From Escherichia coli (GTDB lineage Bacteria; Pseudomonadota; Gammaproteobacteria; Enterobacterales; Enterobacteriaceae), in the NCBI RefSeq assembly GCF_044324785.1, contig NZ_CP172127.1: a DNA stretch of 64,000 nt; one strand, given 5' to 3'. Of the stretch, positions 26,690 through 26,852 are shown one piece after another (the first letter of the stretch is position 1; each line of letters begins with the position of its first letter). The notes under the pieces are model-generated. The model did no database searches. It was not told the origin of the DNA and saw nothing but the letters and a program-made list of their open reading frames with translations. A program made the translations under genes and the position numbers.

Positions 26690-26697
26690 GGTCTGAA

Positions 26698-26734
26698 TTG
26701 CCGGATGCGGCGTGAACGCCTTATCCGACCTACA
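26698..26734. repeat. REP element
   Basis: GCCGGATGCGGCGTGAACGCCTTATCCGACCTACA-type palindromic unit. Confidence 0.7.
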
Positions 26735-26769
26735 AAATAGCGCAAATTCAATATATTGCACCATCCTCG

Positions 26770-26799
26770 CAGGCCTGATAAGCGTAGCGCATCAGGCAG
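26770..26799. repeat. REP element
   Basis: GCAGGCCTGATAAGCGTAGCGCATCAGGCAG palindromic unit. Confidence 0.7.
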
Positions 26800-26807
26800 T
26801 CATAAGT

Positions 26808-26840
26808 AAAAAAGGGCGATCTTCCGACCGCCCTTTTTCT
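26808..26840. terminator. Bidirectional intrinsic terminator between kdpE and pgm
   Basis: AAAAAGGGCGatcttccgaCCGCCCTTTTT hairpin flanked by A-run and T-run. Confidence 0.7.
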
Positions 26841-26852
26841 TATTAAATGTGT

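What the first reader, a model, noticed from the sequence alone, without database searches (positions are those of the whole stretch)
26690..26852. kdpE and pgm separated by only about 160 bp of REP/terminator sequence: speF-potE block apparently absent
As I recall the K-12 order (pgm, ybfP, ybfG, potE, speF, ybfK, kdpE), about 6 kb encoding inducible ornithine decarboxylase and the putrescine antiporter lies between pgm and kdpE. Here the kdpE stop (26689) is followed by two REP elements and a bidirectional terminator, then the pgm stop (26853). This points to an indel at a REP-containing junction, with metabolic consequence (no SpeF/PotE acid-inducible system).
Basis: inference. Interest (0 to 1): 0.45.

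Follow-up and report, generated by a model that had tools for sequence, protein, structure and literature searches.

The report
Natural E. coli allele lacking speF-potE
This E. coli genome carries a naturally occurring version of the kdpE–pgm region that lacks the acid-inducible ornithine decarboxylase/putrescine antiporter genes (speF-potE); about 2% of complete E. coli genomes share this exact layout and about 7% lack the genes, so it is real but ordinary.

Summary
kdpE ends at 26689 and pgm ends at 26853. The 163 bp between them hold a 10-nt linker, one BIME-1 (two inverted REPs around a conserved linker) and a bidirectional terminator.

K-12 has 5,857 bp here: ybfP, ybfG', ybfI', potE, speF, speFL. 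None of it is in the 64-kb window.

This is not a private deletion:
- The same junction is in about 110 of 5,426 complete E. coli genomes.
- It is in an independent assembly that is 100% identical over 12.7 kb.
- It is in a separate Escherichia species-level lineage.
- A further 246 genomes have a ybfP-only allele and 3 have a ybfG-ybfP allele.
- About 375 genomes lack speF-potE altogether.

The window differs from the ybfP-only allele by exactly the segment between two direct copies of one REP, which is the signature of REP×REP recombination.

Across Enterobacterales, kdpE and pgm are a conserved convergent pair. speF-potE is present or absent at this same site within Citrobacter, Enterobacter and Escherichia.

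Verdict: a real, old, recurrent accessory-cassette polymorphism at a recombination hot spot. Its interest is low. Absence of speF-potE from the rest of this genome could not be tested.

The parts
26012..26689 (+). kdpE, the response regulator and last gene of kdpFABCDE. It is intact at 225 aa, with a TAG stop at 26687-26689.
   Evidence: NCBIfam NF007820, 487 bits against a cut-off of 325, full length. The exact protein occurs in 413 index blocks of public assemblies. Its 3' half (26351-26686) is unusually divergent: 90-93% identical to most E. coli, against 97-99% for sequence 1-2 kb away.
26690..26699 (.). A 10-nt linker, GGTCTGAATT, between the kdpE stop and the REP. This is the only sequence specific to the cassette-less alleles.
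   Evidence: K-12 homology ends at 26687 on the kdpE side and resumes at 26698 on the pgm side. The same linker is in N3, in ST2747 and in the ybfP-only allele L006. Variants are GGCCTGAATT, GGGCTGAATT and GCGGTTAAAT in other strains.
26700..26734 (+). y-type REP, GCCGGATGCGGCGTGAACGCCTTATCCGACCTACA, the left arm of a BIME-1. It is the crossover point relative to the ybfP-only allele.
   Evidence: Exact match located. Hairpin of -15.3 kcal/mol, z -3.8. In L006 the same REP flanks ybfP on both sides as a direct repeat. Queries containing it hit a median of 36-40 places per E. coli genome.
26735..26768 (.). Long L linker of the BIME-1, containing the IHF-site-like motif AAATTCAATATATTGCA at 26744-26760.
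   Evidence: The motif is located. The linker is conserved in all direct-junction variants, in K-12 and in E69. PMC3333891 defines BIME-1 and states that its L linker frequently carries an IHF site. There is a sub-threshold Rfam hit to ES036 (33.5 bits against 37.6).
26769..26799 (-). Second REP (z type), inverted relative to the first. It is the right arm of the BIME-1.
   Evidence: Hairpin of -13.0 kcal/mol. Sub-threshold Rfam hits to the REP-derived family naRNA4. Conserved in all alleles that have the BIME.
26808..26838 (.). Bidirectional intrinsic terminator shared by the convergent kdp and pgm transcripts: an A-tract, a GC-rich stem and a T-tract.
   Evidence: Folds at -16.2 kcal/mol on the + strand and -21.9 kcal/mol on the - strand, with z-scores of -4.8 and -5.6 and 0 of 200 shuffles as stable. 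The same hairpin lies downstream of pgm in K-12, CFT073, O157 and E. albertii. The simple scanner missed it because the + strand stem is bulged.
26853..28493 (-). pgm (phosphoglucomutase), intact at 546 aa and convergent with kdpE.
   Evidence: NCBIfam TIGR01132, 1072.6 bits against a cut-off of 778, profile positions 1-546 of 546. Annotated as pgm in all matching RefSeq genomes.

Best explanation
The window carries an old, naturally circulating cassette-less structural allele of the kdpE-pgm interval.

Shown. The kdpFABCDE operon and pgm converge on a 163-bp spacer made of a 10-nt linker, one BIME-1 and a bidirectional terminator. speFL-speF-potE and the E. coli-specific ybfP and ybfG are absent.

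Shown. This is one of at least six structural alleles at this site in Escherichia:
- K-12 type: cassette plus ybfI'-ybfG'-ybfP.
- CFT073, O157 and E. albertii type: cassette only.
- E69 type: cassette plus BIME.
- ybfG-ybfP only.
- ybfP only.
- Empty, as in the window.

Shown. The empty allele differs from the ybfP-only allele by exactly the 647-bp segment lying between two direct copies of the y REP. Only a single REP copy remains at the junction.

Inferred. That step happened by recombination between the two REPs. The simplest direction is deletion of ybfP.

Inferred. The earlier loss of speF-potE itself happened long before this genome existed. The empty allele has since moved between lineages by homologous recombination in the highly conserved kdpDE and pgm-seqA flanks. 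This would explain why it occurs in unrelated serotypes, in two diverged haplotype groups and in another Escherichia species-level lineage.

Functional consequence, from established knowledge of SpeF and PotE. The strain should lack the low-pH-inducible ornithine decarboxylase and the putrescine/ornithine antiporter. It should keep constitutive putrescine synthesis (SpeC, SpeA and SpeB), which is encoded elsewhere and is not visible in this window.
For: Gene identities and coordinates. K-12 order and the 5,857-bp interval. Breakpoints relative to K-12 (homology ends at 26687 and resumes at 26698).

No SpeF, PotE, SpeFL or YbfP anywhere in the window.

Independent assemblies with identical sequence.

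Allele counts in 5,426 complete E. coli genomes:
- Empty allele, about 110.
- ybfP-only allele, 246.
- ybfG-ybfP allele, 3.
- These sum to about 359, matching the 360 genomes with close kdpE-pgm adjacency.
- speF-potE at 90% identity or better is in about 5,051 records, so about 375 genomes lack it.

REP×REP signature. Left of the REP the window equals the L006 left flank. Right of the REP it equals the L006 right flank.

Age. All direct-junction variants share one architecture but differ by up to about 9% in the junction query. They include L014, a separate species representative about 94.5% identical to the window.

Haplotype groups and the local divergence peak in the kdpE 3' half.

Outgroups. 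The kdpE-pgm convergent pair is conserved through Serratia, Pantoea, Dickeya and Erwinia. The cassette is patchily present at the same site in Escherichia, Salmonella, Citrobacter, Enterobacter and Kluyvera.

Independent second route to loss. Strain CUWW10 lost the cassette by recombination between the kdpE 3' end and its ybfI repeat.

speF is among the most frequently pseudogenised metabolic genes in 2,377 E. coli genomes (PMC13322260). Engineered speF and potE deletion mutants are viable (PMC6307189).
Against: The direction of the REP×REP step (ybfP deleted or ybfP inserted) is not resolved. ybfP was not found in this interval in any non-E. coli representative. The empty allele exists in L014. 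So the empty allele could be older than the ybfP-only allele.

No REP lies next to kdpE in the cassette-bearing alleles examined. REP×REP recombination therefore cannot by itself explain the original loss of speF-potE, and that mechanism remains unknown.

Spread by flanking homologous recombination is inferred from haplotype patterns in about 15 sequences, not from a genome-wide phylogeny.

Absence of speF-potE from the rest of this genome was not tested.
Confidence: 0.8

Rival explanations
1. The empty site is ancestral. This lineage never had speF-potE between kdpE and pgm and simply retains the arrangement that existed before the cassette was inserted.
For: Direct kdpE-pgm adjacency is the state in deep outgroups (Serratia, Pantoea, Dickeya, Erwinia, Buttiauxella) and in many Citrobacter and Enterobacter species. 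The empty allele is also in the Escherichia species representative L014.
Against: E. albertii, Salmonella enterica subsp. arizonae, strain E69 and about 93% of complete E. coli genomes have the cassette at exactly this site. Retention would therefore require a presence/absence polymorphism to survive several speciation events. The BIME-1 plus terminator next to pgm is the same derived unit found in the cassette-bearing alleles of K-12 and E69.
Confidence: 0.1
2. This is a recent, lineage-private deletion from a K-12-like or CFT073-like ancestor in this genome.
For: The cassette is missing cleanly, with one edge at the kdpE stop codon and the other at a REP.
Against: The identical 163-bp spacer is in six other public assemblies whose flanks are 98.6-100% identical. 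The same architecture, with diverged sequence, is in about 110 complete genomes of unrelated serotypes (O145:H28, O157:H16, O169:H41, PCN033) and in L014.
Confidence: 0.05
3. speF-potE is present but has moved elsewhere in this genome, so there is no metabolic consequence.
For: Only 64 kb of the genome is visible, so a copy elsewhere cannot be excluded directly.
Against: In complete E. coli genomes the cassette is essentially single-locus, with a median of 1 place per genome and only 2 places on plasmids. About 375 genomes lack it, which matches the roughly 359 genomes with cassette-less alleles at this site. The class of 81 records with 60-80% identity consists of short partial hits, not a second cassette.
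Confidence: 0.03
4. The junction is an assembly artefact, produced by collapse or misjoin at a REP.
For: REPs are repeated dozens of times per genome and can confuse short-read assemblers.
Against: The same junction is found in 110 complete (closed) genomes, in an independent assembly that is 100% identical, and in a metagenome contig.
Confidence: 0.01

Closest known systems
E. coli K-12 MG1655 pgm-kdpE region (b0688-b0694)
   Same: It has the same flanking genes in the same convergent orientation. It has the same BIME-1 and terminator immediately downstream of pgm: window 26698-26852 aligns to the 165 bp next to pgm in K-12.
   Different: K-12 has 5,692 bp more: ybfP, ybfG', ybfI', potE, speF and speFL. 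Its kdpE ends in TGA, not TAG. K-12 also carries a second, degraded copy of the last 142 bp of kdpE (ybfI) on the far side of the cassette.
Annotated RefSeq genomes with the same direct junction: E. coli N3, PCN033, O145:H28 RM13514, O157:H16 Santai, O169:H41 F6326-C1
   Same: kdpE and pgm are separated by 161-174 bp with the same layout of linker, BIME-1 and terminator.
   Different: The junction region is 91-98% identical to the window. Some variants have an 11-bp insertion after the z REP and a different 10-nt linker. Strain ST2747 has an IS200 inserted between the BIME and the terminator.
ybfP-only allele (for example E. coli UID2309220033, L006; 246 complete genomes)
   Same: It has the same kdpE end, TAG stop, GGTCTGAATT linker and y REP, and the same BIME-1 and terminator next to pgm. 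Its flanks belong to the same haplotype group as the window.
   Different: It contains an extra 647 bp between two direct y REP copies: a short-linker REP pair followed by ybfP.
REP/BIME-associated structural polymorphism in E. coli (Ton-Hoang et al. 2012, PMC3333891; Bachellier et al. 1997, cited there)
   Same: BIMEs are reported there as a major source of intergenic polymorphism. The tnpAREP locus is described as lost either by replacement or by precise deletion that retains the flanking BIMEs. Both resemble what is seen here.
   Different: Here the variable content is a metabolic operon and small E. coli-specific genes, not the REP transposase. No role for RayT was tested.
REP-mediated recombination join-points (tandem duplications in Salmonella; recalled from memory, Shyamala et al. 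1990, not checked here)
   Same: Short REP copies serve as substrates for recombination that changes gene content.
   Different: That work concerns duplications selected in the laboratory. Here the outcome is a natural deletion or insertion polymorphism.

Membership tests
KdpE response regulator | Full-length match above the curated equivalog cut-off | tested here: met
   NF007820, 487.1 bits against a cut-off of 325, residues 1-225 of 225
Phosphoglucomutase Pgm | Full-length match above the curated equivalog cut-off | tested here: met
   TIGR01132, 1072.6 bits against a cut-off of 778.05, profile positions 1-546 of 546
speFL-speF-potE operon | Presence of SpeF, PotE and the SpeFL leader between kdpE and pgm or elsewhere in the window | tested here: not met
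   tblastn best E-values are 0.15 for SpeF, 0.043 for PotE and 0.15 for SpeFL. blastn with the K-12 block finds only the kdpE 3' end aligning to ybfI
speFL-speF-potE operon | Absence from the rest of the source genome | not testable with these tools
   Only 64 kb is available. Indirect support comes from counts in complete genomes
BIME-1 (REP pair with a long L linker) | Two REP palindromes in inverted orientation, present as a single copy at the locus | tested here: met
   Hairpins at 26700-26734 and about 26769-26799. There is one pair only
BIME-1 (REP pair with a long L linker) | A long, conserved L linker that frequently carries an IHF site (PMC3333891) | tested here: inconclusive
   The 34-35-nt linker is conserved across all alleles and in K-12 and E69. 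The motif AAATTCAATATATTGCA is present. IHF binding was not tested, and no formal scan against the IHF consensus was run
BIME-1 (REP pair with a long L linker) | High copy number of the REP units in the genome | tested here: met
Bidirectional intrinsic terminator | A GC-rich stem-loop followed by a U-run on both strands | tested here: met
   -16.2 and -21.9 kcal/mol, z-scores of -4.8 and -5.6. Five T follow the stem on the + strand and six T on the - strand
Bidirectional intrinsic terminator | Termination of the kdp and pgm transcripts in vivo | not testable with these tools
   This needs Term-seq or 3' RACE
REP×REP recombination product | The putative partner allele has direct REP copies flanking the variable segment, and the product keeps one copy with matching outer flanks | tested here: met
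   L006 has the y REP on both sides of ybfP. The window equals the L006 left flank, then one REP, then the L006 right flank
REP×REP recombination product | Direction of the event (deletion or insertion) and the enzyme responsible | not testable with these tools
   It needs allele states mapped on a genome phylogeny. ybfP is absent from this interval in all non-E. coli representatives, and the empty allele is present in L014

The most novel reading that the evidence does not exclude
The kdpE-pgm interval may be a long-lived hot spot where speF-potE is repeatedly lost and regained, across Escherichia and other Enterobacteriaceae. Exchange would occur through the highly conserved flanks, with REPs and short kdpE-derived repeats acting as breakpoints. 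On this reading the K-12 reference arrangement is itself a re-acquisition scar. A segment carrying kdpE'-speFL-speF-potE-terminator would have been inserted into a cassette-less ybfG-ybfP allele. That insertion left the recipient's kdpE 3' end stranded as ybfI, with the right junction inside a truncated REP. It would also explain why K-12 speF is unusually divergent. The pattern would suggest fluctuating or niche-specific selection on the inducible ornithine decarboxylase system.
Probability: 0.35. Interest if true: 0.4.

Novelty: already known. Interest (0 to 1): 0.17.

Why it matters
The practical meaning is modest. Strains with this allele should lack the low-pH, ornithine-inducible route to putrescine and the PotE antiporter. 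This may contribute to the variable ornithine decarboxylase reaction of E. coli and to differences in mild-acid fitness. It is also a caution against treating K-12 gene order as the species norm. At least six structural alleles exist at this one interval, and about 7% of complete genomes lack the cassette. As a discovery it is ordinary: an accessory-operon presence/absence polymorphism between conserved core genes, already visible in hundreds of annotated public genomes.

Tried and rejected
(1) The consensus terminator scanner did not report the pgm/kdp terminator. Folding shows a strong hairpin on both strands. The scanner's rule of a loop of at most 8 nt and an unbulged stem excludes the + strand form.

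(2) I suspected the window might be Shigella or a cryptic clade, because no complete E. coli genome matches better than about 98%. It is 97-98% identical to ordinary E. coli throughout and 100% identical to a draft NCBI assembly. So it is simply an E. coli lineage poorly represented among closed genomes. I could not name the organism.

(3) I tested whether REP×REP recombination could have removed speF-potE directly. The cassette-bearing alleles (K-12, CFT073, O157, E. albertii, E69) have no REP next to kdpE, so I rejected that for the cassette itself.

(4) I tested whether a kdpE-ybfG-ybfP allele is the intact ancestor of the K-12 arrangement. It exists in 3 genomes. In CUWW10, however, the kdpE 3' end is 100% K-12-like up to the stop, so that genome is a secondary deletion through the kdpE/ybfI repeat. 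GF4-3 is ambiguous.

(5) The 81 records with 60-80% identity to speF-potE might have been a divergent second cassette. Rank sampling puts them among short partial hits.

(6) Five full-text literature searches, four of them aimed at this point, found no paper describing natural kdpE-pgm adjacency or ybfP/ybfG.

(7) An Rfam search of the spacer gave only sub-threshold hits to REP-derived sRNA families.

Full report
1. THE OBSERVATION

The + strand ORF 26012-26689 is a full-length KdpE (NCBIfam NF007820, 487 bits against a cut-off of 325, residues 1-225 of 225). The - strand ORF ending at 26853 is Pgm (TIGR01132, 1072.6 bits against a cut-off of 778). KdpD lies upstream, and SeqA and YbfF lie beyond pgm.

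The two stop codons are 163 bp apart (26690-26852). MG1655 has the recalled order: pgm, ybfP, ybfG', ybfI', potE, speF, speFL, kdpE. There, 5,857 bp separate the two stops.

Alignment with MG1655 shows that homology on the kdpE side ends at 26687. On the pgm side it resumes at 26698 and runs through the 165 bp that lie next to pgm in K-12. So 5,692 bp of K-12 are represented by 8 bp here.

No trace of SpeF, PotE, SpeFL or YbfP is found in the 64-kb window by tblastn. No K-12 block DNA is found by blastn, apart from the kdpE 3' end matching the ybfI pseudogene.

2. ANATOMY OF THE SPACER

After the TAG stop come, in order:
- A 10-nt linker, GGTCTGAATT.
- A y-type REP at 26700-26734.
- A linker of about 35 nt containing AAATTCAATATATTGCA.
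- An inverted REP at about 26769-26799.
- A hairpin flanked by an A-tract and a T-tract at 26808-26838.

The hairpin is very stable on both strands: -16.2 and -21.9 kcal/mol, and none of 200 shuffles folds as well.

By the definitions in Ton-Hoang et al., a single y + z REP pair separated by a long conserved L linker that often carries an IHF site is a BIME-1 (PMC3333891).

Queries containing these REPs hit a median of 36-40 places per E. coli genome. Rfam gives only sub-threshold hits to REP-derived sRNA families.

The BIME-1 and the terminator are not special to this allele. K-12 has them between pgm and ybfP, and strain E69 has them between potE and pgm.

3. IS IT REAL, AND HOW COMMON IS IT?

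The exact KdpE protein is in 413 index blocks of public assemblies. All six places examined have the identical 163-bp spacer. One of them, an NCBI draft assembly, is 100% identical to the window over 12,678 bp.

Counts among 5,426 complete E. coli genomes:
- 360 have kdpE and pgm close together.
- A junction-specific query finds the direct junction in about 110.
- A query specific for a ybfP-only allele finds 246.
- A chimeric query finds 3 with kdpE-ybfG-ybfP-pgm.
- speF-potE at 90% identity or better is found in about 5,051 records, so roughly 375 genomes lack it.

These numbers agree with each other. They argue that cassette-less genomes do not keep a copy elsewhere. This could not be checked for the window's own genome.

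4. STRUCTURAL ALLELES AND MECHANISM

At least six arrangements exist:
- K-12: cassette plus ybfI'-ybfG'-ybfP.
- CFT073, O157:H7 and E. albertii: cassette, then pgm 56-64 bp later.
- E69: cassette, a first terminator, a linker, BIME-1, a second terminator, pgm.
- ybfG-ybfP only.
- ybfP only.
- Empty: the window, N3, PCN033, O145:H28, O157:H16 and O169:H41.

In every comparison the homology on the kdpE side breaks at the stop codon.

In the ybfP-only allele, ybfP is bracketed by two direct copies of the y REP. The window is identical in layout to that allele's left flank, then one REP, then its right flank. That is the classic signature of recombination between the two REPs.

The direction is not proven. 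Deletion of the 647 bp is simplest. However, ybfP was not detected in this interval in any non-E. coli representative, and the empty allele occurs in a separate Escherichia species representative (L014). So the empty allele may be the older of the two.

REP×REP recombination cannot explain the original loss of speF-potE, because cassette-bearing alleles have no REP next to kdpE.

A second, independent route to loss is documented. Strain CUWW10 has a kdpE 3' end that is 100% K-12-like up to the stop and then continues with the sequence that follows ybfI. So it lost the cassette by recombination between the 142-bp kdpE/ybfI direct repeats.

5. AGE AND SPREAD

The direct-junction variants share one architecture but range from 98% down to 91% identity to the window in the junction query. 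They fall into at least two haplotype groups with different linkers.

The window's kdpE 3' half is only 90-93% identical to K-12, CFT073, O157, O145 and O169. It is 96-97% identical to N3, PCN033, ST2747 and the ybfP-only allele. Sequence 1-2 kb away is 97-99% identical to all of them. This is a local diversity peak beside the variable interval. It is what one expects of old haplotypes that are exchanged by recombination in the flanks.

L014 shows a 98% identical stretch in mid-pgm inside flanks that are 94-96% identical. That points to exchange between clades at this locus.

6. POLARITY

Across 80 species representatives, kdpE and pgm are a conserved convergent pair. They are directly adjacent in Serratia, Pantoea, Dickeya, Erwinia and Buttiauxella.

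The speF-potE cassette sits at exactly this site in E. albertii, Salmonella enterica subsp. arizonae, Kluyvera, Yokenella, Atlantibacter, some Citrobacter and some Enterobacter. It is missing in other Citrobacter and Enterobacter species.

For the genus Escherichia the cassette-bearing state is most simply ancestral, and the empty allele is then a loss. At the scale of the family, the cassette has been lost or gained many times at the same place.

7. FUNCTION

From established knowledge, SpeF is the acid- and ornithine-inducible ornithine decarboxylase and PotE is the putrescine/ornithine antiporter. Their absence removes that inducible module, while SpeC and the SpeA-SpeB route remain. Those genes are encoded elsewhere and are not visible here.

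Engineered speF and potE deletion mutants are viable. The potE mutant is growth-attenuated in an APEC ST117 strain but not in MG1655 (PMC6307189).

speF is among the most frequently pseudogenised metabolic genes in 2,377 E. coli genomes (PMC13322260). I also saw a large set of genomes with an internal speF deletion. All of this fits relaxed or niche-dependent selection.

8. COMPARISON AND VERDICT

I found no paper that describes this adjacency. It is nevertheless already present and annotated in hundreds of RefSeq genomes, and it belongs to a well-known kind: an accessory operon polymorphism between core genes, with BIME/REP-associated breakpoints.

Interest is low, at about 0.17.

The most novel reading not excluded is that this is a long-lived loss-and-regain hot spot, and that K-12's own arrangement, with its stranded ybfI fragment, a junction inside a truncated REP and a divergent speF, is a re-acquisition scar.

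Noticed in passing
L001 (MG1655) 7724-7865, compared with window 26546-26687: The K-12 pseudogene ybfI is a degraded second copy of the last 142 bp of kdpE. It is about 89% identical to K-12 kdpE and has an in-frame stop. It lies on the far side of speF-potE, so the K-12 cassette is bracketed by direct kdpE 3' repeats. Immediately upstream of ybfI are a terminator remnant, a linker and a truncated y REP (GCCGCATCCGGCAG) fused to kdpE position -142. This suggests that the K-12 arrangement arose by insertion of a kdpE'-speF-potE segment into a cassette-less allele, with a breakpoint inside a REP.
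   Followed up: partly
L098 (E. coli CUWW10) 3267-4718; also L099 (GF4-3): Three complete genomes have kdpE-ybfG-ybfP-pgm with an intact ybfG (DUF2625), whereas ybfG is a pseudogene in K-12. The CUWW10 kdpE 3' end is 100% K-12-like and then switches to the sequence downstream of ybfI. That indicates cassette loss through the kdpE/ybfI repeat.
   Followed up: yes
L001 9263-11461 (speF) compared with 7947-9266 (potE): K-12 speF is only 92.3% identical to CFT073 speF and 94.1% to O157:H7 speF. potE is 98.5% and 99.1% identical, and the flanking genes are 97-99% identical. The speFL-speF intergenic region is 85-87% identical over about half its length. Across 5,426 genomes, speF-potE identity to K-12 falls into three bands: 1,418 records at 99% or more, 1,787 at 95-99% and 1,846 at 90-95%. 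The cassette is a mosaic with unusually deep alleles.
   Followed up: partly
window 26351-26686 (kdpE 3' half): There is a local divergence peak here: 90-93% identity to most E. coli, including some other empty-allele strains, against 97-99% for sequence 1-2 kb away on either side.
   Followed up: partly
L014 (E. coli SCPM-O-B-8794, a separate GTDB species representative), aligned to window 27201-27700: The middle of pgm is 98.0% identical to the window, while the adjacent pgm segments are 94.8% and 95.7% identical. This suggests a recombination tract between clades.
   Followed up: no
L094 (E. coli ST2747) 2788-3247: An IS200/IS605-family element with a frameshifted tnpA is inserted in the empty-allele spacer between the BIME-1 and the terminator. 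This fits REP/BIME regions being known targets of insertion sequences (PMC1525189, seen by title and abstract only).
   Followed up: no
L013-L092 (species representatives): speF-potE is present or absent at the same kdpE-pgm site within single genera. In Citrobacter it is present in L016, L018 and L019 (and in L026, a MAG titled uncultured Raoultella with Citrobacter-like identities) and absent in L017, L020, L022-L024 and L027. In Enterobacter it is present in L035, L041, L044, L045, L049, L054, L060 and L064 and absent in L029, L043 and L047. L034 (Pseudocitrobacter faecalis) shows SpeF but no PotE hit.
   Followed up: partly
E. coli genome hits H93, H94 and H252-H254: A sizeable group of complete E. 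coli genomes has speF-potE 99.9% identical to K-12 but in two pieces covering 94% of the query. The gene is annotated only as ornithine decarboxylase, which suggests an internal speF deletion in a clonal group. One genome retains only a 306-bp speF N-terminal remnant (H95).
   Followed up: no
L013 (E. coli E69) 14860-15090: There are two related terminator hairpins, GGGCGATCGAATGATCGCCC and GGGCGATCTTCCGACCGCCC, on either side of the linker and BIME-1 between potE and pgm. It looks as if the BIME unit was inserted into, and duplicated, an ancestral single shared terminator of the kind seen in E. albertii.
   Followed up: no
window 14005-18156 (-) and 12649-13452 (-): A full RHS element core protein (NF041261, 2,624 bits) lies upstream of the kdp operon, with a downstream orphan RHS C-terminal core fragment. 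I recall that K-12 also has an Rhs element beside kdp.
   Followed up: partly
window 26423-26764 (-): A mechanical 113-aa ORF runs antisense through the kdpE 3' end into the REP. It was given no support and is probably spurious.
   Followed up: no
L002 (E. coli N3) 1011-3058 and 6313-6989: N3 is the closest complete genome at this locus. Its kdpB and kdpE are annotated as frameshifted pseudogenes. This could be real decay of the Kdp system or homopolymer errors in the assembly.
   Followed up: no
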